From sequence record NC_023693.1: a stretch of 64,000 nt of DNA; one strand, given 5' to 3'. Position numbers and translations under genes: made by a program. The stretch comes from Escherichia phage phi92. Shown piece after piece: positions 11,723 through 64,000 of this stretch. Under the pieces are notes generated by a model. It made no database searches. It had not been told where the DNA came from and saw nothing but the letters and a program-made list of their open reading frames with translations. How positions within the stretch are numbered: position 1 is the stretch's first letter; each line of letters begins with the position of its first letter.

Positions 11723-14700
11723 TCAGTGACAAGTTGACCATGAACTACCAACATCGTAACCAGCAGTGAGAGGTACATTAAGATTGTAATACTCACCAGC
11801 TTTATTAACAGCGATAGATGCTAATTCTCCAGCACGACTGTAGGCTGTAAACCAACCACCTTTCGGAGATTCATGTACGTTAGCCCAAATCTTGCCAGTA
11901 CGTTTCTCTTCCTCTTCTTTCCAGGCATTAACTTTATCCAAACATTCTTTATCAATTTTCTTTTGTTCCTCTGGATCATCAACTTGAGTCCAACCTAAAG
12001 ATTCTTTAGAGAACCATTTAAAATGCACCAGATCACGAGTTACTTCAAGCTGTGCTTCATCGTGATATGCAATCATTTGTTGAACGAATGACTTATTTTT
12101 CCAGTCATCAACAAAAAAGTCAACAGCTAATCCTTCTTCTTCGATAAGATCGTCGTAGATAACCATTGCTCTTTTTGCACAAATAACACCACCACTCTGG
12201 AACAGAGAGTTAAGTATTGCGTGTGCAGATCGTGTAGGTACTTTCCTACCATCAATACCAAGAATGTATTTCTTACCTGTTTTAACCCAAAAATCATGCA
12301 GACGTTCTTTAAGAAGCGCAAGAGGTTTTGCAGCTTCCCAGAAAGCATCGTATACAAGCTGTCCTGTATACATATCACTACCTATAGTTTTTGCTACTTT
12401 TGCAGCTTGAGCACCATAAGTAATACCATACTTAACAGATTTAGCAGGGCTTCGTTCAAACTTACGACCAATAGTGTCAGAAATACGTCGAGCCATCATT
12501 GTATGAACATCATTAGGTTTTTCCAATAATAGAGCATTACAATATTCGTGTGGTTCCTGCTCGTACCGCCAACAATTCCCTGTAATCGTGATGCAGTCTT
12601 TCTGACGCATAACCCATGTACCGAGTTCTGTTTGTGGACACCAAACATCTTCTACACCCCATTCTTCAATAGTCAGACTTTGAACAGGGATGTGAGAGCG
12701 GTTAGCCAACGTTGCCACTTTTACTTTCTGGTCTTTCGTATTGAAGGCTACAGAAATATTACCCCCATGAACCAGGTATGAGGCAGTTAAGGCTGCTTCA
12801 AAAAGTTCTCCTGGGTTCTGCGCCCAGCGCCAAACAGGTTTTTGTTTATGTTTGTGCCAGTAACCATCCGCAATCAAAAAACCTTCCAAGAAAGCCACAC
12901 GCTCGGCATGAGACATATTAACTACACGTTCTACCCACGGAACATCCCATTTACCTTGTTGAACAGAAGTTAAACTATTTACTTGATCTTGTTCCATGTT
13001 AAATGGAGCATTACAAATAATGTTATCTCCTGTGCAAAGCTCGGCAGTTGTTCTGACTTTAGGCACATAAGTATTCCCTGTACTACGAGTATTAACATAC
13101 CAACGGTGATCTGCTGTTGCACGATAAGTATGGGATTTTCCTTTAATCTCAAACGTCTTACTATTTTTATAGAAGACCTTACCTTTTACTTTAGTCCATT
13201 CTTTAAGTCCTGTTTCTGGGTTATATCCTAAGATTTCATCCCCTTCTTGTAGATCGTGATAACCAACCCAACCTTTACGGGTTAGTGCTTGTGCATCCAT
13301 AGGTACACAGTAGTGTGATTCTATTTTTGCCTCAAGAGAATCAAAGTCATAACCAATTTGGAAGTATTTTGGAACTTCTACACCAAATAAGTTACGCATT
13401 TCATATCCGTACAGAGATGTTACACGTGGGATATTTGCTACTAACCTATGTTTCATACGAGACGTAGCTGCATCACACGTTGCAGCAGGAGTTGGTATAC
13501 GACCATCAGCCCTTACTGCTGCCAGATAACCTTTATCGTAATCCTCTTCATCTTCTTCCCAATCAGCACCACCTCCTAGAATAGAGTTCCTACGGTGTTT
13601 ATACGTAAGATACTGCACAATCTGCGTAGCATAAGGAAACTTTTCACCTAGTGCTTCCAAGTTAGGACAAATATCTTTCTCTTGCCCTTTTGTAAAGGAA
13701 GGGTTAGTAAGCACTTTAACACCACGACCTTTAGCTTTAGCAATACGATCTCTTAGTTTCCATTCCAAAGTTTCTGGTGTGCACTCCAGATGATCACATC
13801 TGTCCTGGCAGAAGTTAGATGCCAATGTTTGATCAACATAGTCACGAATAGCTTTCTCCATTTGTGCTTCATCTTTCTTAATCTTAGTGCCAGATTTAAG
13901 AGTGATATCTTTATCTTTATATTCAGATGGACTCCAACCTAAACCAACTAACCAGTTTTTAATATGTGTCGTGTCGTCTAAAGTAGCAGGTACTGTAGGA
14001 TCACAAATAGGTTCTTCTGCTGGAATAGGTAGTTTAAACTCTTTACCTAAAGCAAATAACCACCAACCATCTTCTTTTTGTACAAGTTCACCAGAATGTT
14101 TCTCTGCAAACTTTATCATGTTACTTGAAGGTTCACCATTCTTTTTAAACTGTAGTTTAGGTGGAATGAATGATTTCAAATAACCTTTAGTAGCAGGTTT
14201 AGGAGGTAGCACAGGTTCTGCCTCTAAACGACATGCTTCCATTCGAGCATCCAGATCACGAATATTATCTTCTGCTTGTTTCATATTGAAAGCAAAGCCA
14301 CGGTGCTCTTGACGTGTAATAATATCCGCTACACGTTGTTCTAAGTTAAATGGTTCAGACCACTTATTATAATCACCCCACTCTTCCATCAAATAACGGA
14401 ACACTGCGGTGTTAGCTTTGTTATCGTAAATACAGTAATACAGCATATCTGCTGCAAATGTTTTAAATCTTTCAGTTTCAGGGATATTTTTTCTAAAATC
14501 AATTTTAACATCCCCTCCAGCTTTCTTAGATAACTCTGCCAGACTATGACCACCGAAGCGATCAGGGTTTAGTGTCTTACTTAAGATCATAGTATCACAA
14601 ATTTCAATGTTACTATTACCCCAAGTATTGTACTTAATACTGTAGTTGAGTTTAAAAAATAATTTAATTGCCAGTAAGTCAAAGTTAATGATGTTATGTC

Positions 14701-15037
14701 CAACTACTTTGGTAATTTTATAGTTTGAATTACCTTTAAATTTACCTGTTCCATTTACAAAATCAGGAAAATCTTTAAGAGGGAAATGGGTATATTCTAA
14801 ATGCTCATATTCCTCCAGTCGGTATTCATACTTTCCGTCAGTCTCAACATACGGACGACCATCGAAAAGATATTTATCACCATCATGGAAAGCAATAATC
14901 TCTCCAGTATCATGACTTTCGCACACAATACAGTGCATTGCAAAACTATCTTTTAAACGATATGGACTTGCCAAGTAATCTACACTTTCGTCATTAAGCA
15001 AGTTGTTACTTTCAATGTCGAAAGTAAAAGCTCCCAT
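11723..15037 (-). CDS. family A DNA polymerase with 3'-5' exonuclease domain, interrupted by an intein
   Basis: Exo I FDIES; motif A DFDSLEAKI; motif B RSPAKSVKYGITYG; motif C YHDEAQLEV; in-frame insertion between motifs A and B. Confidence 0.8.
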   Translation of the reverse strand: MGAFTFDIESNNLLNDESVDYLASPYRLKDSFAMHCIVCESHDTGEIIAFHDGDKYLFDGRPYVETDGKYEYRLEEYEHLEYTHFPLKDFPDFVNGTGKFKGNSNYKITKVVGHNIINFDLLAIKLFFKLNYSIKYNTWGNSNIEICDTMILSKTLNPDRFGGHSLAELSKKAGGDVKIDFRKNIPETERFKTFAADMLYYCIYDNKANTAVFRYLMEEWGDYNKWSEPFNLEQRVADIITRQEHRGFAFNMKQAEDNIRDLDARMEACRLEAEPVLPPKPATKGYLKSFIPPKLQFKKNGEPSSNMIKFAEKHSGELVQKEDGWWLFALGKEFKLPIPAEEPICDPTVPATLDDTTHIKNWLVGLGWSPSEYKDKDITLKSGTKIKKDEAQMEKAIRDYVDQTLASNFCQDRCDHLECTPETLEWKLRDRIAKAKGRGVKVLTNPSFTKGQEKDICPNLEALGEKFPYATQIVQYLTYKHRRNSILGGGADWEEDEEDYDKGYLAAVRADGRIPTPAATCDAATSRMKHRLVANIPRVTSLYGYEMRNLFGVEVPKYFQIGYDFDSLEAKIESHYCVPMDAQALTRKGWVGYHDLQEGDEILGYNPETGLKEWTKVKGKVFYKNSKTFEIKGKSHTYRATADHRWYVNTRSTGNTYVPKVRTTAELCTGDNIICNAPFNMEQDQVNSLTSVQQGKWDVPWVERVVNMSHAERVAFLEGFLIADGYWHKHKQKPVWRWAQNPGELFEAALTASYLVHGGNISVAFNTKDQKVKVATLANRSHIPVQSLTIEEWGVEDVWCPQTELGTWVMRQKDCITITGNCWRYEQEPHEYCNALLLEKPNDVHTMMARRISDTIGRKFERSPAKSVKYGITYGAQAAKVAKTIGSDMYTGQLVYDAFWEAAKPLALLKERLHDFWVKTGKKYILGIDGRKVPTRSAHAILNSLFQSGGVICAKRAMVIYDDLIEEEGLAVDFFVDDWKNKSFVQQMIAYHDEAQLEVTRDLVHFKWFSKESLGWTQVDDPEEQKKIDKECLDKVNAWKEEEEKRTGKIWANVHESPKGGWFTAYSRAGELASIAVNKAGEYYNLNVPLTAGYDVGSSWSTCH
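12575..13309 (-). other. intein inside the DNA polymerase gene (boundaries approximate)
   Basis: Starts CVPMDAQALTRKGW after motif A, contains TADH block and LAGLIDADG-like FLEGFLIADGYW, ends ...ITITGN before CWRY; extein then resumes with NDVHT as in T7 polymerase GDIHT. Confidence 0.5.
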
Positions 15038-15533: not shown

Positions 15534-17306
15534 TTAATAAGAACCAGCAGAAATATTTTCTGGGTTACTTGTGTATTGATCGTAATCGTGAAGTGTAGCT
15601 GTTTTAATCTCATAGAAGAAACTACCTGCTGCACCAGTCTCTGAGAACTCACGGTTCTTTAGAATGTAGCAATATGTGCGGTTACGTTCCATAGGATCTT
15701 CAGCTTGTTTATCACGCTCCAGCGCAATTGTGATACCAGCACCTTTAGCAAGGAAGCTACTACCCATTGCATCATCTTCTACAATATGTTCATTACTATT
15801 GTTAGAAGACTTTTTAACGTGTGAAATTACAACAATGGTTATTGCATACTCTTTCATAATGCGTTTGAGCCACGTCGCAAGTTCCTCTTGTTGTGACACG
15901 TCCATACCAGAAAGCAAATCAGAATAAGGGTCGATAACAAGAATGGTTACTCCGAAATAAATAATCATTTCCAGAACCTTCTCTTTAATCACATCTACGT
16001 TAGCTCCACGATCATCACAAACATAGAAACGTGGTGTTCCATCTTCTCGTTCGTAAAAATCACGAATCTTTTCCTCATTATCTTTTAAAATCTTTTCCTT
16101 CTCTTCTTTCGTTTTACGGTGAAGAGGGATATGCAAGAATGAAGACAGTAAGTTACGAGAATACTTCTTATACGTTGCCTCCAAAGATAAAATACCAAGA
16201 GTATGTTCTGGATGTGCAAGAATAATGTGCTTCGTAATCTCGTTAACCAACAGTGTCTTACCGATACTTGTTTTTGCAAGTATAACAGTAATTTCTTCTT
16301 CTACCAAGCCTCCACCTAACATATTTGAAGCAACACGCATGAATGGAGGAAGGGTGATCATTTTAGCTTCCAGGCATTCCAAGGCTGCTTCATACAGTAC
16401 GTTAGAAGCGTAAACACCAGCAGGTGTGTACAGTTTAGCTTTGAAAAAGCGATCAATAAAATGATCAATTTTTCCTTCTACTAGCGCCTGGTTAGGATCT
16501 TTAACATCCGTTAGTTCCATCACGTAAACTTTATTACGTGGTAAGATTTTAACACATTTCTCAACTGCTGCACGTCCAGCTTCATCATTATCCATACATA
16601 GAACAATCTTTTTAAATTGATCTAAGAATTTATAACGATGTTGAAGCTGCTTATGCAGAGATGTTTCGCCACAAGTACCAGATACTACAGCAGGAACAGG
16701 ATATTTACCACCCTTGTTATAATCTTTTAGCATCTGTGTTGCAGCCAGCATATCGTGTTCACCACCAACGATTAGAATAGTACCGCTGTGGTTACGATAT
16801 TTAAACTCCCCAAAAAGATCACAATCCTTTCCTGTTTCACCGATAGGATGTGAGAAATCTTTTGGATCGATACGTTGTTTATACCCAGCAATATTGTAAT
16901 CTTTAGTTGTAGGGTACAGTGTTGAAATTACTTCGCCAGTAGCTTCATCGTACATATAACGTACACCGAAAGGCTTAGAGATATCTTCACGAATACCTCG
17001 ATAACCTTTTGGATTAGTTCCAGTGCTGGCTTTTAGTTTATCATGTACTTCTGGATTAAACTCACTACCCAAGATATCCTCCTCTTCAATTTCTTCGCCG
17101 TGTGCATTTAACCATTTTTGATCAGGGATAGTAAAGCCACAAGAAAAACAATGTGCGCCTCGATGGTCTTCATCGGCATCTAAGCCATATACCATCAAAT
17201 TGTTTTGTGATCGATCACGCCCTCCTTTCATACAACGAGGACACCCAGTATGTCCTTCTTGACTTAGATCAATGTTATACCCATATTTATTTACAACATA
17301 AGACAC
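15534..17306 (-). CDS. DNA primase-helicase (T7 gp4-like)
   Basis: N-terminal zinc ribbon CPRC...CFSCGF; C-terminal DnaB-type helicase with Walker A AKTSIGKT and Walker B VIDPYSDL. Confidence 0.8.
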   Translation of the reverse strand: MSYVVNKYGYNIDLSQEGHTGCPRCMKGGRDRSQNNLMVYGLDADEDHRGAHCFSCGFTIPDQKWLNAHGEEIEEEDILGSEFNPEVHDKLKASTGTNPKGYRGIREDISKPFGVRYMYDEATGEVISTLYPTTKDYNIAGYKQRIDPKDFSHPIGETGKDCDLFGEFKYRNHSGTILIVGGEHDMLAATQMLKDYNKGGKYPVPAVVSGTCGETSLHKQLQHRYKFLDQFKKIVLCMDNDEAGRAAVEKCVKILPRNKVYVMELTDVKDPNQALVEGKIDHFIDRFFKAKLYTPAGVYASNVLYEAALECLEAKMITLPPFMRVASNMLGGGLVEEEITVILAKTSIGKTLLVNEITKHIILAHPEHTLGILSLEATYKKYSRNLLSSFLHIPLHRKTKEEKEKILKDNEEKIRDFYEREDGTPRFYVCDDRGANVDVIKEKVLEMIIYFGVTILVIDPYSDLLSGMDVSQQEELATWLKRIMKEYAITIVVISHVKKSSNNSNEHIVEDDAMGSSFLAKGAGITIALERDKQAEDPMERNRTYCYILKNREFSETGAAGSFFYEIKTATLHDYDQYTSNPENISAGSY

Positions 17307-38598: not shown

Positions 38599-41373
38599 TT
38601 AGTTTACCAGTTTATTTATATCGGGTAAAAGATTTATTTCACCTAAAAAATCACCTTCACCTTCCTCTAACCAACTCTCATATGCTTGTGCATGATTATA
38701 GTTACCATCAAAAGAATCTGCAACAAATTTTTCTACAGTTTTTCGAGATGTGCCAGCGCCAAATACACCAAGTTTAATACCATTGATCGGTAAAGTGGTG
38801 CTTGTTGGTACTTTCTCTGTTGCAACACGGTTGATATCTATAATCTCCTGTACGGTTGTGTTCCATTGTAAGCATTTAACACAACGGGTATGCGCTACAT
38901 ACAGTAGGTTTCGCTCTGCCTCTTCCAGTCCTACCCATTCACCAGTCTTTTTATCATAGTTGGAAGGAAAATCATTAGCAACAATAACCTGATCCCACTC
39001 CAAACCTTTAGACTTGTGTGCTGTAGTCAGTGTGACTTTTGCTGTAGGAGAATTTCTATGCGTTCTAAGTGTATGTGCTATAGTGTTCGCCTTACCAGAA
39101 ACTACGATGTTTAACAAGCGTTTAGCATCTGGATCAGCCTCTGCACACTCAACAAATTCATTCCAATCTGCGTAAGGTAATACAGTTTCATGTTTTACTT
39201 TCTCAATATCTCCTCTCCGAAGAGCATTAACACTATCTACCATAGAGATAAAATCCCTGGTATCTACGTTAATAATAATTTCTTCCCCATTTGCAATACG
39301 ATCCATTGCCTCCATAAGCAAGGTTAAATTCTTGCGAAAGATGATAGTGTAAGGTTTTGTATAGTCTACAACATCTGATTTGTAGCTACCTACTACAGTA
39401 TCAAAGCCTTTACCAACCAAAGGATGACGCAAAGGTTCTTTATCGCTTAAAATCATATTGGCAATGTTTGCCACTTTGGGGCCAAAACGGAAGCAAGCAG
39501 TTAATGGAAGCTCTGCCCCATACTTAGCTGTTTCAATCATCATATTAGAGCTACCTCTAAATTGATAAATGCAGTTGTGGCTAAGAATTTCATTGCCAAA
39601 GAAGTTAGCAGTATCCTCTACTTCAATATCATAATAGATACCCTCACTATCTACAATGTCCACAATCTCTTCTGCCGTTACAGTATCACCATCTTTTACC
39701 AACACAGACATGCCTTTAAACAAACCCGCTGCCGGAATTAAGTTATATTTGGCAGTGTCTACAGAGGACATGCATTCTTTTAAAGATGCAAACGGAACTA
39801 TTTCAAGGATCTTTTGTGCAAAACTCAATGCTTCACGATAAGAATTGAAATACTTACGTACACGGTAACGACCTTCCAATTTAGCAACACTTACGCTTAC
39901 ACCTGCTTTAATGAGTGAAGCATAGATCGGCATTTCACTTTCTGTCCACTCAAAACTGACTTGTGTTCCTTTACAACCTTGTGCTCGCAAAGTCACTGTT
40001 AACATTTTTCTTTCATCTACTGCACAATTGATGCTGTGCCAATGTGGATAAGCAAAATGATAGTCTTTATCCTCTAAAAGTTTAAAACCATTCTGTCCGA
40101 ATTGTTCAAAGATGTTATTGATCCTTTCTTGATTAATGCCGCGTGAACTTGCTTCAAATACACAAGTAGGAATGCCATATTGTAAACTGTATGCCATTTC
40201 TTTTTCCATAGCAGCTTCGCGATTTTCAACAATGTCCAACACCCATAATTTCTGTGCTTTTTCAGAACGTGTACGTTGCCCCAGTTTAGAAAAACCTTCT
40301 TTATCATCGAATTTGTTAGTGATCCCTACTCGGAAACCTAAATCTTTCCTCCACATTAGGTATACCACCATCTGGTCATCTTTCAGAACATAGGATGAAG
40401 CCCAAATACGATGGTTATGTGTCATATCTAAAGTTTTACCTGTAGCAGTAATAATATTCCTACCTTTTGTACGTGTAGATAAAGTTTTATTTGTTACTTT
40501 TCTAAATGTAACTTTACCATTAGAATAAGACTCTACCTTATCACCGATTTGCAGGTCTTTCATTGTAACCTGACCATTCTCGGTGTTAAGTACCGTGTTT
40601 TCCGACACACATTGGAATTCATCGCCCACTACCACAATTTGTTTTGCAGATTTAGCATTTCGCAGAATAGACAAGAATGCAGGGTTAACATCCTGGAATT
40701 CATCACCAAAAATAATATCATAACCAAGATCAGCACCAGACAATTCAAACAATTTTACATAGGTGTCATGCGTCATCAAAGTATCTGTATTAGGATCAAT
40801 GCGCTCTCGCCACAATTGTTTTGCATACTTAACTACTTCTGTAATTAGTTTGTGTTCGTTAATACCTTTTCTTTTAATATCTGCAAGATGTACACTAGGA
40901 AAATGTTTACGGCTGATAAAAGGATCATCCGAAAATTCAAACTTACCTACGGTTTGCTTGATCATTAAACCGATCATAGCACGAGTTAAAAGTGTTTTCC
41001 CTCGTTTATCAATAAGATTATTAATCTTAAATTTCTTTGCTATCTCGCTACCTGTACCTGCAACGTTAACATACTGTCCTTCTGGTCGTGACAGTTTTGC
41101 ACGTAAACGATGATCCAGGAATTGATAGCAAATAGAATGCAATGTACGGCATTCTACATTTAGTGGCATCTTACGTCGTGCTTCTTCTGCCATGCTTTTA
41201 TTGAAAGCTAAGTAAAGAATGCGATCTTCTGTACTGTTAGCCAGCAAATAAAGTGTTGACGTTTTGCCTGATCCAGATTTAGCTTGGATAGTTAAAAAGC
41301 GATGGTCTGGAAAAGCCTCCTTAATAGCTGTTTGCTCTTCTGTTGGAGTGAAGCTCAAATCTTTCTTAGCCAT
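38599..41373 (-). CDS. UvrD/Rep-like SF1 DNA helicase interrupted by an intein
   Basis: Walker A AKSGSGKT, motif II GDEFQDVN, motif III split as VVGDEFQ / CIYQFRGSS; start set to ATG (MAKKDL) with RBS agagagg. Confidence 0.75.
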   Translation of the reverse strand: MAKKDLSFTPTEEQTAIKEAFPDHRFLTIQAKSGSGKTSTLYLLANSTEDRILYLAFNKSMAEEARRKMPLNVECRTLHSICYQFLDHRLRAKLSRPEGQYVNVAGTGSEIAKKFKINNLIDKRGKTLLTRAMIGLMIKQTVGKFEFSDDPFISRKHFPSVHLADIKRKGINEHKLITEVVKYAKQLWRERIDPNTDTLMTHDTYVKLFELSGADLGYDIIFGDEFQDVNPAFLSILRNAKSAKQIVVVGDEFQCVSENTVLNTENGQVTMKDLQIGDKVESYSNGKVTFRKVTNKTLSTRTKGRNIITATGKTLDMTHNHRIWASSYVLKDDQMVVYLMWRKDLGFRVGITNKFDDKEGFSKLGQRTRSEKAQKLWVLDIVENREAAMEKEMAYSLQYGIPTCVFEASSRGINQERINNIFEQFGQNGFKLLEDKDYHFAYPHWHSINCAVDERKMLTVTLRAQGCKGTQVSFEWTESEMPIYASLIKAGVSVSVAKLEGRYRVRKYFNSYREALSFAQKILEIVPFASLKECMSSVDTAKYNLIPAAGLFKGMSVLVKDGDTVTAEEIVDIVDSEGIYYDIEVEDTANFFGNEILSHNCIYQFRGSSNMMIETAKYGAELPLTACFRFGPKVANIANMILSDKEPLRHPLVGKGFDTVVGSYKSDVVDYTKPYTIIFRKNLTLLMEAMDRIANGEEIIINVDTRDFISMVDSVNALRRGDIEKVKHETVLPYADWNEFVECAEADPDAKRLLNIVVSGKANTIAHTLRTHRNSPTAKVTLTTAHKSKGLEWDQVIVANDFPSNYDKKTGEWVGLEEAERNLLYVAHTRCVKCLQWNTTVQEIIDINRVATEKVPTSTTLPINGIKLGVFGAGTSRKTVEKFVADSFDGNYNHAQAYESWLEEGEGDFLGEINLLPDINKLVN
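39574..40611 (-). other. intein (about 346 aa) inside helicase motif III
   Basis: Begins CVSENTVLNTENGQVT right after GDEFQ, ends ...NEILSHN directly before CIYQFRG. Confidence 0.6.
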
Positions 41374-41374
41374 T

Positions 41375-41851
41375 TCAACCTCTCTTAATTTGTTTAACAA
41401 GCATAGGAACAAAATCTCGTTTTAAAATTTGTTCAATAATATGATCAGGTAGCTGTTGGAAATTATAATTAAAAGCTACTGTCTCACCTTTAGGTGTTTC
41501 TACCCGCACATATAACATGTTACGAAGTTTATCCACTTGTGCTGTATATTCTAAACCATGTAATTGATGTATTGCAAACATCAAATCGTCAGTTTCAGTT
41601 TGGAATCTATCACTTCCTTGCATCAAGGACAAGGTAAAAGGTAGATTTTCCCTAAGAGCCACCTTCTTAGGCACTAGTGAAGGGAAATACTCCCCAATAA
41701 CTTCCTGTGTAAGCTGAATACACTCTTTTTCAAGCTGGTTTTGTTCCTTGAGTTCACAAACACTTTTTTGTAAAGTGTTAACCTCTTTTTGCAAAGCTGC
41801 TAGTTGAGCACTTAACTTTCTTTTTTGATTACGACCAAAACGTTTAGACAT
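41375..41851 (-). CDS. hypothetical protein
   Basis: 158 aa ORF, N-terminal coiled coil. Confidence 0.4.
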   Translation of the reverse strand: MSKRFGRNQKRKLSAQLAALQKEVNTLQKSVCELKEQNQLEKECIQLTQEVIGEYFPSLVPKKVALRENLPFTLSLMQGSDRFQTETDDLMFAIHQLHGLEYTAQVDKLRNMLYVRVETPKGETVAFNYNFQQLPDHIIEQILKRDFVPMLVKQIKRG

Positions 41852-51938: not shown

Positions 51939-52154
51939 TATTTTGAAAATTTTTATTTTTATAAAAAGGGGTGTGGGTTTCATGTACGGAAATTCACCCT
52001 CTGCACAGTATACCCAGAGTAAGTATTATTCTATACTCTGTTAATAAAGTATTTAATTTGTTTGTTGGACTATGGTATCTGGTTTTTAAAAGACACATTA
52101 TCTCTTAACTACTATTTATAACAGAACAGTAAAATCATTTTTATAAAAAGGACA

Positions 52155-52355
52155 AAATTATTTAAAGTTTTTACTAGATTTTTGGCTACAAATTTTGAAA
52201 ATGAAAAGTTCAAGTTTGGTCAAAATTATTTAAAGTTTTTGTACGTATTTCTATCCAGATTTTGAAAATGAAAACTTCAATTTTTTAAAAATTCCCCAGT
52301 TTATTTAAAGTTTTTTTGCCTTTTTCCGTAGAAAAATCAAAAATGAAAAGTTCAA
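52155..52355. repeat. three tandem imperfect direct repeats (iterons, about 70-75 bp)
   Basis: Each unit contains TTATTTAAAGTTTTT ... TTTGAAAATGAAAA(G/C)TTCAA. Confidence 0.6.
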
Positions 52356-52378
52356 TTTCGTGTTTTTATGGGTGTGCG

Positions 52379-52500
52379 GATGATAATCATTCTCATTTGT
52401 AAATGAGAATCATTATCATTTAATTATGTAAGTGATAATCATTCTCACTAAGAGAATGAGAATCATTAGCAAATGAGAATTTTTCTCATTTAGAGAATAA
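52379..52500. promoter_or_regulatory. cluster of palindromic operator-like sites (Fur-box-like)
   Basis: GATAATCATTCTCATTTGTAAATGAGAATCATTATC near-perfect 36-bp palindrome, plus GATAATCATTCTCA...GAATGAGAATCATTAGC and AAATGAGAATTTTTCTCATTT. Confidence 0.45.
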
Positions 52501-52753
52501 CGCGCAGGGGTGGTGTTTGTCTCGCGCTCCCGTGTCCCCTCGCCATACAATAAGAATAGCATAACCAACAACAAAAGCAAGCGATTATTTTTATCTTTAC
52601 ATTTCTTTACAAATTTATTTTAGACGAGCTACCGGCGATCAACCTTCCAACCAGTAGTGCCCTGGTATGTTAGCCCCGCCTTTACGCCGTGGGGGTGGCG
52701 CTTCCTCTTCTGTATGTAAAACAGTATAAGCCCGATCCCTGGGCTTGTCAAGA

Positions 52754-53020
52754 TTATTTTTTGTTTTCTTGCCAGGATAGGACACCTAACCAAAAATACA
52801 TGTCGCCCCGCGCCCCTGGTGGGATCTTGCTTTCCCCGCCGCCACTGCAAGCCCATAGATAACCATTTGCGAACGTATCAAAATGATCTATCTCTTCCAC
52901 CTTATGATCGCCCAGGTTGAGAACGGTTTCAACCTTTAAGCCCGTTGCGCTTGCTACCTGGTGCACCGTGCCGCCTTGCCAGCCCAATGAGTGCATGAGG
53001 TGTGAAGTAGTATTTGTCAT
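52754..53020 (-). CDS. hypothetical ORF in GC-rich island (uncertain)
   Basis: 88 aa ORF with weak RBS; local GC content visibly higher than the surrounding phage DNA. Confidence 0.25.
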   Translation of the reverse strand: MTNTTSHLMHSLGWQGGTVHQVASATGLKVETVLNLGDHKVEEIDHFDTFANGYLWACSGGGESKIPPGARGDMYFWLGVLSWQENKK

Positions 53021-60677: not shown

Positions 60678-61064
60678 ATGAAAACAGAAATCATTATTGA
60701 AATCATCAACGGTTATAAAGAAGCCTTTATTTTTGCCGAACCAGCGACGGATCACAATGGGGAATATATTGAGAATCTAGACGATTATGATTTTTCTCCT
60801 AGCGCCCTGAAACGTATTACCAGCGATGTGACCGCCTTTTGTAGTGCCAATGTTGCCGCTATCTCTGAGGCAATGAGCGACGGCGCTACAGCAAACCAGA
60901 TCGGGAATGATTTACATTTCACCCGTAACGGTCACGGCGTAGGCTTTTGGGATCGCCCTGAAATATACACTACTAACACCGCCAACCGCCTAACAAATGC
61001 AGCTAAATTAATGCCATCGGTGCATGCTTACATTGGTGAAGATAATTTGATTTATATTGAATAA
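60678..61064 (+). CDS. hypothetical early protein
   Basis: 128 aa ORF. Confidence 0.45.
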   Translation: MKTEIIIEIINGYKEAFIFAEPATDHNGEYIENLDDYDFSPSALKRITSDVTAFCSANVAAISEAMSDGATANQIGNDLHFTRNGHGVGFWDRPEIYTTNTANRLTNAAKLMPSVHAYIGEDNLIYIE

Positions 61065-61070
61065 AAAGTA

Positions 61071-61129
61071 TTGACACCGATCCCCAATATGGTACTATTT
61101 ACCACGTAGGCGGGAAGTGGTTTCCCGCT
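61071..61129 (+). promoter_or_regulatory. early promoter + leader hairpin (cassette 13)
   Basis: TTGACA, 16 bp, TACTAT, then GGCGGGAAG-TGG-TTTCCCGCT (two G-T positions). Confidence 0.55.
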
Positions 61130-61186
61130 AAATGAGAGATTATCATTATGTTCGATATCAGCCTGGACAAATAAGAGATTCCCATA

Positions 61187-61732
61187 ATGAACGCCTTGAT
61201 CGACAAAAAAACCTTTCTTAATAACGCCTACGTTAATGAACTACTTTCATCCGGTCGCTGGGTTAGCCACGGATCTGACCTTCAAACATGGCTAGATGAG
61301 TGCGACGAGGTTCCCGCCGCCTTTTCAGGTAAAAATTTGCAGCAGGTTATAAATGATACTGAATTTTTAAACTTCTTCCGTGAGTGGTTAAGCTGCCGCT
61401 TTGATTTTGCTATGAAATATCTGATCCAAGACATTAACCAACACACGGTTATTCGGCGGGCGGTATACCTAACCCCGGCACAAAAGGCCGAAATATTGCC
61501 CGGTTCTTTTGTTAATGTTGGTAAATATTGGACAGTATCCAGGACTGTGGAGCCATACGGGGCCACCTACACAAAGGATCGGGAGATAGTAACAATCACC
61601 ACAGAGTTAGACCTTAATTCAATCGACCTTATTCAGACGATGATCTCTCGCATGGACTATATTAATGGAGATTATGAAATGGAGATACAAACAAAGGAAA
61701 ACTTACCTGTAAAAATTCTCGCTATAGAATAG
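61187..61732 (+). CDS. hypothetical early protein
   Basis: 181 aa ORF. Confidence 0.45.
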   Translation: MNALIDKKTFLNNAYVNELLSSGRWVSHGSDLQTWLDECDEVPAAFSGKNLQQVINDTEFLNFFREWLSCRFDFAMKYLIQDINQHTVIRRAVYLTPAQKAEILPGSFVNVGKYWTVSRTVEPYGATYTKDREIVTITTELDLNSIDLIQTMISRMDYINGDYEMEIQTKENLPVKILAIE

Positions 61733-61755
61733 CCCGCTGCCCGGCGGGTTTTCTT
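61732..61755 (+). terminator. rho-independent terminator
   Basis: GCCCGC...GCGGG stem followed by TTTTCTT. Confidence 0.5.
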
Positions 61756-61788
61756 ACAGTTTTTTACAATTCTACCTATTGACACCGG

Positions 61789-61839
61789 ATCGCCCTTATA
61801 CTAAGATGTATCACGTAAGGCGGGAAGTGGTTTCCCGCC
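61789..61839 (+). promoter_or_regulatory. early promoter + leader hairpin (cassette 14)
   Basis: TTGACA, 17 bp, TAAGAT, then GGCGGGAAG-TGG-TTTCCCGCC. Confidence 0.55.
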
Positions 61840-61857
61840 AGATATAGGAGTCATATC

Positions 61858-62088
61858 ATGATCGAACAAATTAAACGCGCTGAGGCTATTAACGGTAATG
61901 TGATCTATTTTGTCAACAATAACGAAAAAGGCGTACCATATGCGGCGGTAATAGTACAGCCTGACGGCGATTATTGGTTTACTGTATACGGATCTTATTC
62001 TTTTGGGCGTCCAGTACATGATAAAATTTTGGAAGTAGCTAATCCCACTGGGAAGAATATCACAGTAGAAAAATTCTATGAAAAATAA
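61858..62088 (+). CDS. hypothetical early protein
   Basis: 76 aa ORF, RBS aggag. Confidence 0.45.
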   Translation: MIEQIKRAEAINGNVIYFVNNNEKGVPYAAVIVQPDGDYWFTVYGSYSFGRPVHDKILEVANPTGKNITVEKFYEK

Positions 62089-62163
62089 CTTGCTTTATAG
62101 CCTCTGTTAATTTATAGTTATCGTGTAGGGCAAACAATTTTAAACGGTAAACGAGGAATCTCC

Positions 62164-62547
62164 ATGAGCAATATCATCAACCTGGCGGCGACTGTAAACG
62201 GTAAAGATTTTAACGGCGCTGTAGATCGTGATCCTATGTGGTGCTTATCAGTGTTTAAAGGCGATCTGGTTGAAGTTAGAACAACCGAAGGGTATAGCGA
62301 TGATTATAAATGTGAGATTCATTTGCACAACTGGTACACGGGTAAAACTTATGCGCTGAATCATGCGTTTATCGGGAAAATTGAATATCGCGAGATGATC
62401 GACGAGGAAACCGGGCAAGATTTTAGCGACTATGTTTATATTCGTTCAGAAACATTAGCCGAACGTTTGATCGAGAAAATGAAAGCAAAAAATAAAATTA
62501 ATTTAACTCATTGGATTGATATAACAAACGATCCAGCTTATCAGTAA
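62164..62547 (+). CDS. hypothetical early protein
   Basis: 127 aa ORF, RBS gagga. Confidence 0.45.
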   Translation: MSNIINLAATVNGKDFNGAVDRDPMWCLSVFKGDLVEVRTTEGYSDDYKCEIHLHNWYTGKTYALNHAFIGKIEYREMIDEETGQDFSDYVYIRSETLAERLIEKMKAKNKINLTHWIDITNDPAYQ

Positions 62548-62563
62548 ATAACATTTCATACCA

Positions 62564-62589
62564 GGGCGCTTATTGCGCCCTTTCTTTTT
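62564..62589 (+). terminator. rho-independent terminator closing the early array
   Basis: GGGCGC-TTATT-GCGCCC followed by TTTCTTTTT. Confidence 0.6.
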
Positions 62590-62803
62590 ACCTAAATAAA
62601 GATGATAGCTTTTACCTATCAAAAACGTTCACCGAAAAAAGTGAATAGATCGCGGTATCGAGCTAATCAAGGAGCAGATGAACAACCATACCATGAAGAT
62701 CATAAGGCGCTTACAACGTGTTTTAGACCGCTTATTTTTAATTTCTCAATGTAACTATCGGGCAAAAACAGCCTTTTTCTTGTCTTTCCTCTTAAATGAT
62801 AAT

Positions 62804-63948
62804 CATTCTTATTTATAGCTGATTATTTATGCAATAAACTGCATAATGCAATAATGATAATCATTCTTAACTTAAGACCATCTAACCTATAAAATAATAA
62901 GCTATCTAACTAAATTAAACCTAATTATCTCACTTTTATTTATAACTTACTGTTATTATCTCATTGATAACATTGTATTAAACAACAATAACTAATATAA
63001 ATCATTACTAAGCTAACTATAATCTATCTAACCCTTAAAACTACAATTATAATCTATCAAATTGTTGCACAAAGTAACTATTAAATTGTTAGTAACATTA
63101 CTAAATAATTTACATCCTACTTATTTATGATCTAATCTTTACCTCCCTATCTATTACCTAAATAACCATTTCATGTAGTAATCATTTCATACAATAACTA
63201 TAACAAGAAATATAATTCGCAAGCGTATCATTAGCAGCCTATGCCGGACACATAGGCGGCTAATAATAACGCAACTACACACCCCACATAATAACCATCA
63301 CCGATAGTTATTATTTGTGCTTATGTAGCTTGCAACAATTGCAAGCGCAACAATATACGAGAGTATATTGTATTCCCTTACATTGTTGCGGTGCGTTATT
63401 ATTAGCTAATGTTTAGAACATTGGCTATAATATAAGCTAAATAATAAGCTATGCAATAATAAACATGGTGAATAATGACATTGATGATCATAATGCGCCA
63501 CCCTCCAGGGGGCGCTATGTGTACACAAAGAAATCTTTCTTGTCAAGAAAAATATCATCACTATTGCGCAAAATTATTTACATCTGAATAGATGATTTTT
63601 CATACTATTGCCCCCATAATTATCTTTATTTGTTACCCCTAAATATCCTATTTGTTGAGCCTACTTTCTTAAAAGCGCAATAAATCAGAATTATCTTGAT
63701 TTTTAGTCGGTTTTATAGTATAGAAAATATGTAAATGATAATCATTATCAGCTATCTTCCACGGGTGGCACTATTTCACGCCAGATCATTTCATTTGACA
63801 AGGTGTATATAGATGTTTAGACTTGCCAAGCCATTGATTTACTTAGAATTTATCTGTTTTGTTGTGAGTAGTACCTTTCTTGCTCAGAAAATAATCAAAA
63901 GTCTTATAAGTCATTGAATGATAATGCAAATGATAATTATTCTCATTG
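62804..63948. promoter_or_regulatory. non-coding AT-rich region with four Fur-box-like sites and short repeats
   Basis: AAATGATAATCATTCTTA at 62804 and 62852, AAATGATAATCATTATC at 63733, AATGATAATGCAAATGATAATTATTCTCATTG at 63916; recurring (A)TCTATCTAAC motifs; no ORF of 60 aa or more. Confidence 0.4.
63259..63406. repeat. nested inverted-repeat structure
   Basis: Exact 14-bp inverted repeat GCTAATAATAACGC / GCGTTATTATTAGC enclosing palindrome GCTTGCAA-CAA-TTGCAAGC and inverted repeat CGCAACAAT...ATTGTTGCG. Confidence 0.5.
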
Positions 63949-64000
63949 ATATTTGAGGGGGACGGTCGGCAGAAATCGGGGGGCGCTGAAAATCGCGTTA

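What the first reader, a model, noticed from the sequence alone, without database searches (positions are those of the whole stretch)
62876..63158. AT-rich tract with recurring (A)TCTATCTAAC-like motif
CATCTAACC, GCTATCTAACT, AATCTATCTAACCC, AATCTATCAAA and CCCTATCTATTACC recur within about 280 bp devoid of ORFs. These may be iterons for an initiator or terminase small subunit.
Basis: seen in the sequence. Interest (0 to 1): 0.35.

Follow-up and report, generated by a model that had tools for sequence, protein, structure and literature searches.

The report
G-poor AT-rich spacer near phage terminus
The flagged stretch is a non-coding, A+T-rich, almost guanine-free spacer about 500 bases before the terminal repeat of a phi92-like E. 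coli phage genome; its repeated "iteron" words are weak, and what stands out is that it is the easiest place in the last 64 kb to pull the two DNA strands apart.

Summary
The listed words are all present and the tract has no real ORF. As 7-10-mers they are not beyond chance: some 7-mer occurs three times in 66% of dinucleotide shuffles. The copies are irregularly spaced, no better conserved than the rest of the tract, and absent from the sister genus. Only the short core TAAC/CTAAC is reproducibly enriched, about 2.6-3.3-fold, on one strand, in several lineages.

The robust feature is composition. The tract has the fewest G (4%), the lowest G+C (21-23%) and the least stable duplex of the 64 kb. 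Its + strand RNA would be almost structure-free. Homologous tracts of Phapecoctavirus and two other lineages share these properties although the sequence has diverged.

The window is the right end of a Justusliebigvirus genome, and 63658-64000 is the right copy of the direct terminal repeat. The tract lies in a conserved terminal non-coding region. On its left are Fur-box-like palindromes; on its right is a roughly 170-nt hairpin element supported by compensatory changes.

Best guess (about 0.3): a helically unstable spacer serving end-associated replication or concatemer processing by a T7-like replisome. Iteron, Rho-entry and neutral-spacer readings remain open. The closest look-alike is the T7 short-repeat array next to its terminal repeat.

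The parts
62563..62590 (+). Intrinsic terminator closing the rightward gene array; the last gene is 62164-62547, Phi92 gp248-like
   Evidence: 7-bp G+C-rich stem followed by TTCTTTTT. The stem is invariant and the loop varies among relatives. Annotated as a terminator in phages Paula and Schickermooser.
62797..62869 (.). Conserved block of three palindromes: Fur-box-like TGATAATCATTCTTA at 62797-62811 and 62855-62869, and TTATGCA-N6-TGCATAA at 62827-62846
   Evidence: Matches to the 7-1-7 pattern. The block is kept in Justusliebigvirus, Phapecoctavirus and KP13-26 while its surroundings diverge.
62876..63158 (+). The finding: an A+T-rich, G-depleted, ORF-free tract. The G-poor zone actually runs from about 62830 to 63200. 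TAAC/CTAAC words are all on the + strand
   Evidence: G 12, C 53, A 112, T 106. Lowest G, lowest G+C and least stable duplex of the 64 kb. Predicted + strand RNA energy is -0.076 kcal/mol/nt against -0.204 +/- 0.038 elsewhere. Diversity pi is 0.048.
63084..63199 (.). Justusliebigvirus-specific insertion within the tract. It includes a 16-nt tandem repeat, TAAYCATTTCATRYAG, at 63161-63195 present in 1-3 copies
   Evidence: No counterpart in Phapecoctavirus or KP13-26. Copy number varies among 12 relatives. Annotated as repeat_region in phage inny.
63237..63406 (.). Conserved multi-helix hairpin element. A 15-bp long-range stem (63259-63273 with 63392-63406) closes a junction of hairpins. Whether it forms in RNA or DNA, and on which strand, is undecided
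   Evidence: 46 pairs, 99.5% of cells paired, 10 pairs with compensatory changes, 0 of 500 shuffles as good, slid controls 20-47% paired. Single-sequence z-scores -6.8 (+) and -8.45 (-). No Rfam match. pi 0.017. One copy in the window.
63613..63656 (+). 23-nt tandem repeat (two copies) abutting the left boundary of the terminal repeat; the most variable part of the region
   Evidence: Tandem Repeats Finder. pi 0.21-0.25.
63658..64000 (.). Right copy of the direct terminal repeat (343 bp). The window ends at the physical right terminus. It carries a perfect Fur 7-1-7 box at 63736-63750 and a one-mismatch box at 63931-63945
   Evidence: The Schickermooser record has an identical 329-bp repeat at both ends. 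It starts AGCAAGTTC and ends GAAAATTCGCGTTA, matching window 63658 (AGCCTACTTTC) and the window end (GAAAATCGCGTTA). The VEcB record starts at window 63658. BME3 is reported to have a 342-bp repeat (PMC12210895).

Best explanation
The tract is not an iteron array. It is the helically least stable, G-depleted spacer of a conserved non-coding terminal control region of about 1.1 kb. That region lies between the last rightward gene and the right direct terminal repeat of phi92-like and phAPEC8-like phages (Stephanstirmvirinae).

Its most likely job is physical. It offers a stretch of about 300 bp that melts easily and carries no competing signals on its A/C-rich strand: no start codons, no Shine-Dalgarno sites and almost no secondary structure. 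Neighbouring elements could then act on single-stranded nucleic acid. These neighbours are the palindromic protein-binding block on its left and the covarying hairpin element on its right.

The phage has a T7-type replisome (family A polymerase plus a gp4-like primase-helicase) and no recognisable initiator. The inferred use is therefore entry of that replisome, or strand opening needed to process and duplicate the terminal repeat in concatemers.

Shown: composition, duplex instability, conservation of those properties across lineages, position relative to the terminal repeat, and the flanking conserved elements. Inferred: that melting is the selected property, and which end-associated process uses it.
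For: The tract has the lowest G+C (21-23%) and the least stable nearest-neighbour duplex of the 64 kb.

The homologous tract is also the local minimum of G (5-11% against about 21%). It is at or near the minimum of G+C and duplex stability in Phapecoctavirus tuntematon, phiWec186, WPEC1, TSP7_1 and KP13-26, although sequence identity is only about 65%.

Diversity among 12 close relatives is about half that of third codon positions in the neighbouring gene (0.048 against 0.096), so there is some constraint.

The order of elements is conserved across the subfamily: terminator, palindrome block, tract, hairpin element, variable repeats, terminal repeat.

The replisome is T7-like: DNA_pol_A at 11723-15037 and Toprim plus DnaB_C at 15534-17306. 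From established knowledge of T7, its origins consist of a promoter followed by an A+T-rich region. One such origin promoter, phiOR, lies near the right end; the T7 record lists it at 39229.

T7 also has a G-poor (10.8%), A/C-rich (65%) array of CTAA-containing words directly next to its terminal repeat.
Against: No origin or packaging data exist for this phage group in the literature searched.

No sigma-70-like promoter conserved between genera points into the tract.

A duplex-unwinding role does not by itself explain why only G is removed while C stays at the genome average (18.7% against 19.9%).

A second A+T-rich non-coding region at 52.0-52.5 kb has three direct repeats of 63-75 nt and looks more like a classical origin.

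The tract tolerates a 117-bp insertion and variable tandem repeats.

There is no A-tract phasing that would indicate a designed bend.
Confidence: 0.3

Rival explanations
1. RNA-level element. The tract is transcribed rightward as an untranslated RNA that is G-less and structure-free. It would serve as an entry zone for Rho or other single-strand RNA binders, stopping read-through from the rightward gene array before it reaches the hairpin element and the terminal repeat. In the mirror version it is transcribed leftward as a C-poor, Rho-immune RNA with G>C skew, possibly prone to R-loop formation.
For: The C/G ratio reaches 13, the maximum of the window. The predicted + strand RNA is the least structured stretch sampled (-0.076 against -0.204 +/- 0.038 kcal/mol/nt). 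G-depletion with C retained is a strand-specific property, conserved across lineages. The tract follows the end of a long co-directional gene array. The skew has the sign typical of minus-strand genes in this phage and changes sign near the hairpin element in all lineages.
Against: C and YC dinucleotides are not enriched (C 18.7% against 19.9%; YC 0.092 against 0.099). No run of six regularly spaced C is present, although 45% of shuffles have one. A good intrinsic terminator already lies upstream at 62563-62590. No conserved promoter was found on either strand. The only ORF that would prove rightward mRNA here (62678-62818) shows no codon-position signature and is missing in the sister genus. 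There is no Rfam match.
Confidence: 0.2
2. Protein-binding repeat array. Copies of (A)TCTAAC, or of the shorter (C)TAAC, would be bound by the small terminase subunit, a replication initiator or another phage DNA-binding protein. This would mark the packaging or replication start near the genome end.
For: The chosen motifs exceed shuffles when tested one at a time. TAAC/CTAAC is enriched on one strand in several lineages. The three exact ATCTAAC cores are invariant in 12 close relatives. The tract is close to the terminal repeat. In T7 the small terminase recognises a pac element (PacB) in concatemeric DNA (PMC9860248). T7 also has same-orientation CTAA-containing repeats next to its repeat.
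Against: The unbiased k-mer test is not significant. Spacing is irregular. Motif spans are no better conserved than their surroundings. The 7-mers are absent from Phapecoctavirus. A 4-5-nt core is too short for a specific duplex-DNA site. There is no helical phasing.
Confidence: 0.12
3. No specific function. The tract would be a tolerated spacer between functional elements (the palindrome block and the hairpin element). Its odd composition and weak internal repeats would come from old local duplications, slippage and strand-biased mutation.
For: The repeated k-mer excess is only marginal. There is a 117-bp lineage-specific insertion, and tandem repeats vary in copy number. Sequence identity between genera is only about 65%. 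Diversity is three times that of the neighbouring hairpin element.
Against: The compositional extreme (G 4-11%) is kept at the same place in lineages whose sequence has diverged. Diversity is half the third-codon-position level. A skew of -0.63 is three to four times what the transcribed genes of this phage show.
Confidence: 0.2

Closest known systems
T7 short-repeat arrays flanking the terminal repetition (SRL/SRR of Dunn and Studier 1983; names from memory, sequence checked here)
   Same: Both are non-coding and lie next to a short exact terminal repeat of a phage with a T7-type replisome. In both, one strand is G-poor and A/C-rich and carries same-orientation short words with a CTAA core. 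T7 positions 161-400 have G 10.8%, A+C 65% and 8 copies of CCTAAAG.
   Different: The T7 array directly abuts the left repeat, with 8 exact heptamers mostly 13 nt apart. Here the tract lies 500 bp before the right repeat, with at most 3 exact 7-mers at irregular spacing, and is far richer in A+T. The function of the T7 arrays is, to my knowledge, also unsettled.
Transcription-activated origins of T7 (promoter followed by an A+T-rich region; phiOL and phiOR near the ends) and of T4 (promoter plus unwinding element)
   Same: An easily melted A+T-rich stretch lies beside a conserved protein-binding or promoter-like block. The replisome is of the T7 type, with no initiator gene recognised. The position is near a genome end, like phiOR.
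   Different: No conserved promoter was found pointing into the tract. Origin activity is untested. The tract, at about 300 bp, is much longer than the T7 A+T-rich region, which I recall as about 60 bp.
Iteron-type origins (lambda ori, theta plasmids)
   Same: Direct repeats in an A+T-rich non-coding region.
   Different: Iterons are 17-22 bp, highly similar and helically phased, and lie next to the gene of their initiator. Here the longest family is 3 copies of 17 nt at 82-88% identity, spaced 122 and 30 nt apart. It is not above chance.
Rho-dependent terminator entry (rut) sites
   Same: G-poor, unstructured, untranslated, and located after the end of an operon.
   Different: Not C-rich. YC dinucleotides are not enriched and the regular C spacing is absent.
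Small-terminase recognition sites (T7 PacB; SPP1 pacL/pacR, from memory)
   Same: Near the site where packaging ends are made. Short repeats in A+T-rich DNA.
   Different: No bend signature. The motif is not conserved between genera whose terminal repeats are clearly homologous. Binding is untested.

Membership tests
Iteron array of a replication origin | Three or more direct repeats of about 17-22 bp with high mutual identity | tested here: not met
   The best family has 3 copies of 17 nt at 82-88% identity. The exact repeats are 7-mers in 3 copies, which 66% of shuffles also give.
Iteron array of a replication origin | Regular spacing in helical register | tested here: not met
   ATCTA copies are spaced 24, 118, 4, 26, 78 and 19 nt apart. 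The 17-mers are spaced 122 and 30 nt apart.
Iteron array of a replication origin | Repeats conserved as units in relatives, with a cognate initiator gene nearby | tested here: not met
   Motif spans are no better conserved than the rest of the tract. The 7-mers are absent in Phapecoctavirus. Neighbouring genes are small hypothetical proteins. Initiator function itself was not tested.
Terminase small-subunit recognition (pac) site | Lies close to the DNA end that packaging creates | tested here: met
   The tract ends 500 bp before the right terminal repeat, 63658-64000.
Terminase small-subunit recognition (pac) site | Specific binding by the small terminase, and a requirement for packaging | not testable with these tools
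   Needs a band-shift or footprint with purified protein, and a plasmid-transduction or deletion assay.
DNA unwinding element | Local minimum of duplex stability | tested here: met
   -1.09 kcal/mol per bp against a mean of -1.28. Only 0.4% of windows are less stable. The same holds in five other lineages, where 0.3-3.4% of windows are less stable.
DNA unwinding element | Opens under superhelical stress and is required for initiation at an adjacent origin | not testable with these tools
   Needs chemical or nuclease probing and origin mapping.
Rho-dependent terminator (rut site) | G-poor and unstructured RNA | tested here: met
   G is 4%. The + strand energy is -0.076 kcal/mol/nt against -0.204 +/- 0.038 elsewhere.
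Rho-dependent terminator (rut site) | C-rich, with regularly spaced C or YC dinucleotides | tested here: not met
   C is 18.7% against 19.9% in the window. YC density is 0.092 against 0.099. There is no run of six C at 11-13-nt intervals.
T7-type short-repeat array beside a terminal repeat | Many near-identical same-orientation heptamers directly abutting the repeat | tested here: not met
   T7 has 8 exact CCTAAAG within 240 bp starting 15 bp after the repeat. Here there are 3 exact 7-mers, 500 bp or more from the repeat.
T7-type short-repeat array beside a terminal repeat | Strand-asymmetric, G-poor, A/C-rich composition with a CTAA core | tested here: met
   In the 371-nt zone 62866-63236, G is 5% and A+C is 59%, with CTAA[CT] in 7 copies. 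Sister-genus tracts have G 10% and A+C 72%. T7 has G 10.8% and A+C 65%.
Fur-binding array | Matches to the Fur box GATAATGATAATCATTATC or its hexamers inside the tract | tested here: not met
   The best match in the tract is 12 of 19. NAT(A/T)AT hexamers are not enriched (P=0.2). Good boxes lie only in the flanks.
Known RNA families (Rfam 15) and tRNA/tmRNA | Covariance-model or ARAGORN match | tested here: not met
   No match at E<=1 in 61000-64000. No tRNA in the window.

The most novel reading that the evidence does not exclude
The whole terminal non-coding region could be one host-iron-gated control module of a virulent phage. On this reading E. coli Fur binds the near-consensus boxes that bracket the tract (62797, 62855) and sit in the terminal repeat (a perfect 7-1-7 box at 63736, and 63931). 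Fur occupancy would then decide whether the G-less, easily melted tract and the adjacent covarying hairpin element are opened or transcribed. That would couple early transcription, replication start or end processing to iron status. Alternatively, the amplified phage DNA could titrate Fur and de-repress host iron uptake.
Probability: 0.08. Interest if true: 0.7.

Novelty: new member of a known kind. Interest (0 to 1): 0.3.

Why it matters
Nothing is known about where phi92-like and phAPEC8-like phages start replication or how they make their exact terminal repeats. These phages are widely used in therapy and host-range work. This analysis fixes the position of the repeat in this window. It also lays out the conserved order of elements in the terminal non-coding region: terminator, palindromic boxes, G-less low-melting tract, covarying hairpin element, variable repeats, terminal repeat. 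That gives defined targets for deletion and mapping experiments. By itself the tract is an ordinary kind of thing, an A+T-rich spacer, and the iteron reading should not be carried into annotation.

Tried and rejected
1. Iterons. The unbiased k-mer test, the spacing, and the within-genus and between-genus conservation all argue against them.

2. Intrinsic bend. There is no 10-11-bp periodicity of AA/TT or A-tracts in any of four lineages.

3. Fur spreading into the tract. Fur hexamers are not enriched and the best 19-mer match is 12 of 19.

4. Classical rut site. The tract is G-poor and unstructured, but it is not C-rich and lacks regular C spacing.

5. Known RNA or tRNA. None was found.

6. 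Host-derived sequence. There is no match in 5,426 complete E. coli genomes.

7. Small ORF 62678-62818 as proof of rightward mRNA. Six sequences suggested synonymous-only changes. With 12 sequences there is no third-position excess (pi 0.037, 0.041, 0.049). The ORF is absent from most Phapecoctavirus genomes and has no Pfam match.

8. A promoter driving the tract. The only candidate is TTAACT-17-TAAAAT at 62867-62895, with 9 of 12 matches. The region has no more promoter-like sites than shuffles, and this site is not kept in the sister genus.

9. Mirror-image C-poor tract on the far side of the terminal repeat. The skew there is only +0.16 to +0.37, which is ordinary for this phage.

10. Deciding the strand of the hairpin element from wobble pairs. 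Five cells favour the + strand and nine the - strand, which is not decisive.

11. The rV5 genome, looked at for an equivalent region. The stretch fetched did not contain it and I did not pursue it.

12. Literature searches for termini, origins, promoters or Fur boxes in this phage group. They gave only the terminal-repeat statements. The phi92 genome paper is not held.

Full report
**Where the window comes from**

The last 2 kb of the window match more than 60 Escherichia phages at 90-95% identity. Most are Justusliebigvirus, the phi92-like myoviruses of the subfamily Stephanstirmvirinae, with genomes of about 146 kb. More distant matches reach Phapecoctavirus (phAPEC8-like) and unclassified Klebsiella phages.

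The finding lies in a non-coding region that begins after gene 62164-62547 (Phi92 gp248-like) and its intrinsic terminator at 62563-62590. A gap of 1.5-2.0 kb occupies the same place in every relative fetched.

**The genome end**

The Schickermooser record carries an identical 329-bp repeat at both ends. It starts AGCAAGTTC and ends GAAAATTCGCGTTA. The window ends ...GAAAATCGCGTTA, and the VEcB record starts at window 63658, AGCCTACTTTC. So 63658-64000 is the right copy of the direct terminal repeat (343 bp), and base 64000 is the physical right terminus.

The literature agrees. BME3 has a 342-bp repeat by read-start analysis (PMC12210895), and members of the subfamily are said to end in direct terminal repeats (PMC12695924). 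The repeat annotated in the BME3 record is shifted by about 72 bp relative to this boundary, and that record carries extra copies. I therefore rely on the other two sources. The finding thus lies 500-780 bp before the right repeat.

**The observation**

The tract holds no ORF of 30 aa or more, and only one 22-aa TTG ORF.

Tested one at a time against dinucleotide shuffles, the words look enriched. ATCTAAC occurs 3 times against 0.15 expected, and ATCTA[AT]C 5 times against 0.23. But those motifs were picked after looking at the sequence. In an unbiased test, some 7-mer reaches three copies in 66% of shuffles, and the total excess of repeated k-mers is marginal at P=0.03-0.06.

Other checks point the same way:
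- Spacing is irregular.
- Among 12 Justusliebigvirus genomes the motif spans have pi 0.052 against 0.047 for the rest of the tract (P=0.67).
- In the homologous Phapecoctavirus tract the 7-mers are gone.

What survives is a shorter core. TAAC is the top over-represented 4-mer in the window's tract (13 against 5.0 expected). It ranks first to third in four other lineages. CTAAC occurs 3-4 times in the window's tract and in the three Phapecoctavirus-type lineages against 0.4-1.25 expected, and once in KP13-26. These lineages are homologous, so they are not independent trials.

**The stronger feature**

The tract has 12 G, 53 C, 112 A and 106 T. It ranks as follows:
- It is the most G-depleted 283-nt window of the 64 kb.
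- It has the lowest G+C, at 21-23%; the next lowest is at 52041.
- It has the least stable duplex, at -1.09 against a mean of -1.28 kcal/mol per bp.
- Its + strand RNA would be the least structured stretch sampled, at -0.076 against -0.204 +/- 0.038 kcal/mol/nt.

C is not enriched (18.7% against 19.9% in the window). The A+T-richness therefore comes from the loss of G alone.

The homologous tract is again the local minimum of G (5-11%) in tuntematon, phiWec186, WPEC1, TSP7_1 and KP13-26. It is near the minimum of G+C and of duplex stability there, and A rises to 49-52%. Sequence identity to the window is only about 65%. Positions 63084-63199 are an insertion specific to Justusliebigvirus. It includes a 16-nt tandem repeat present in one to three copies. 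Diversity in the tract (0.048) is half that of third codon positions in the neighbouring gene (0.096) and three times that of the next element to the right (0.017).

**Neighbours of the tract**

On the left is a block of three palindromes, kept in three lineages while the surrounding sequence diverges:
- TGATAATCATTCTTA at 62797
- TTATGCA-N6-TGCATAA at 62827
- TGATAATCATTCTTA at 62855

The two outer ones resemble the Fur box GATAATGATAATCATTATC (consensus from PMC3788343).

On the right, 63237-63406 folds into a multi-helix element. It has 46 pairs, with 99.5% of cells paired. Ten pairs show compensatory changes, and 0 of 500 shuffles score as well. Slid controls pair at 20-47%. It has no Rfam match and occurs once in the window. 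Wobble pairs do not decide the strand, so it could form in RNA or in single-stranded or cruciform DNA.

Then come a hypervariable stretch with a 23-nt tandem repeat and the terminal repeat.

**Mechanism**

The phage encodes a family A DNA polymerase and a Toprim plus DnaB-type primase-helicase, which is a T7-type replisome. No initiator was recognised. From established knowledge of T7, its origins are promoters followed by A+T-rich DNA, and one origin promoter (phiOR) lies near the right end. The T7 record lists phiOR at 39229 and phiOL at 405.

T7 also has a G-poor (10.8%), A/C-rich (65%) array of eight CCTAAAG words directly after its terminal repeat. This is the closest known look-alike of the tract.

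I therefore favour a DNA-level reading. The tract would be a helically unstable spacer that lets the flanking elements work on single strands. The purpose would be replisome entry, or the strand opening needed to duplicate the terminal repeat during concatemer processing. Confidence is about 0.3. The composition, the position and the conservation are shown. The use is inferred.

**Rival readings**

- *RNA reading (about 0.2).* A Rho entry zone or another G-less unstructured RNA fits the strand-specific loss of G and the lack of structure. Against it, C and YC are not enriched, regular C spacing is absent, a good intrinsic terminator lies upstream, and no conserved promoter was found. The small ORF 62678-62818, annotated in some records, shows no codon-position signature and is absent from the sister genus. 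It therefore does not prove rightward mRNA.
- *Protein-binding repeats (about 0.12).* This is weakened by the statistics above and by the lack of helical phasing.
- *Neutral spacer (about 0.2).* This fits the insertion and the variable repeats, but not the conserved compositional extreme.
- *Fur spreading into the tract.* Rejected.

**Novelty and verdict**

The searchable literature says nothing about this region. As an object it is a new example of a familiar kind, an A+T-rich strand-asymmetric spacer next to phage genome ends. It is not a new kind of system, and the iteron label is not supported. Interest is 0.3.

The more notable things are beside it:
- the covarying hairpin element;
- the near-consensus Fur boxes, with 9 matches to TGATAATNATTATCA at up to 2 mismatches against 0.95 expected, eight of them in the two large non-coding regions and one perfect match inside the terminal repeat;
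- a second non-coding region at 51.9-53.0 kb, with three direct repeats of 63-75 nt and a cluster of the same boxes.

Noticed in passing
window 63237-63406 (model match 63222-63412): A hairpin element of about 170 nt, conserved across Justusliebigvirus, Phapecoctavirus and KP13-26. It has 46 pairs, 10 of them with compensatory changes, and a 15-bp long-range stem closing a junction of hairpins. It has no Rfam match and occurs once in the window. Whether it forms in RNA or DNA, and on which strand, is undecided. The 3' arm of the first hairpin can pair with either of two partners.
   Followed up: yes
window 62797-62811, 62855-62869, 63736-63750, 63931-63945, 52381-52471: Near-consensus Fur boxes (TGATAATnATTATCA) in a virulent phage. 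There are 9 matches at up to 2 mismatches against 0.95 expected. Eight lie in the two large non-coding regions, and one perfect box lies inside the terminal repeat. The boxes next to the tract and in the repeat are kept in Phapecoctavirus. I found no report of this in the searchable literature.
   Followed up: partly
window 51939-53013: A second large non-coding region. It has three direct repeats of 63-75 nt (52155, 52222, 52297) in 22% G+C DNA. These are followed by a 40-bp near-perfect palindrome and further Fur-like boxes (52380-52492), then a G+C-rich stretch. It looks more like an origin than the finding does.
   Followed up: partly
window 63658-64000: The window ends exactly at the right end of the direct terminal repeat, so it is the last 64 kb of the genome record. 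The left boundary, GTTG|AGC, is shared with Schickermooser and with the start of the VEcB record.
   Followed up: yes
window 62827-62846: The palindrome TTATGCA-N6-TGCATAA lies between the two Fur-like boxes and is conserved in three lineages. Its binding protein is unknown.
   Followed up: partly
window 63161-63195: A 16-nt tandem repeat, TAAYCATTTCATRYAG, is present in one to three copies among close relatives. It is annotated as repeat_region in phages inny and muut. CATTTCAT also recurs at 62552 and 63787.
   Followed up: partly
window 63588-63657: The stretch just left of the terminal repeat, with a 23-nt tandem repeat, is the most variable part of the region (pi 0.21-0.25). The last 90 bp of the repeat are nearly invariant (pi about 0.013).
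   Followed up: partly
window 62628-62707: An almost invariant non-coding block (pi 0.000-0.008) lies upstream of, and overlaps the start of, the doubtful ORF 62678-62818. That ORF is annotated in several records, but it lacks a codon-position signature and is absent from the sister genus.
   Followed up: partly
L008/L009 (PP239276, phage BME3): The BME3 record holds three full or partial copies of the terminal-repeat sequence. Its annotated repeat is shifted by about 72 bp relative to the boundary seen in Schickermooser and VEcB. This is probably an assembly or annotation artefact.
   Followed up: partly
search hits MG065639, MG065645, MG065656, MG065689: Four unverified records named Campylobacter phage are 94.5% identical to this E. 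coli phage region. They are probably mislabelled or contaminant genomes.
   Followed up: no
window 38599-41412 (- strand): A UvrD-like helicase gene interrupted by an intein (Intein_splicing and Hint matches at residues 267-613).
   Followed up: no
L001 6060-6200 (just beyond the window end, left-end unique region): Two copies of AAAGGGGTGTGT(C/T)(G/A)AAAATAA..GGTATA lie between the terminal repeat and the first gene, and are also present in Schickermooser. They may be early promoters or operators.
   Followed up: no
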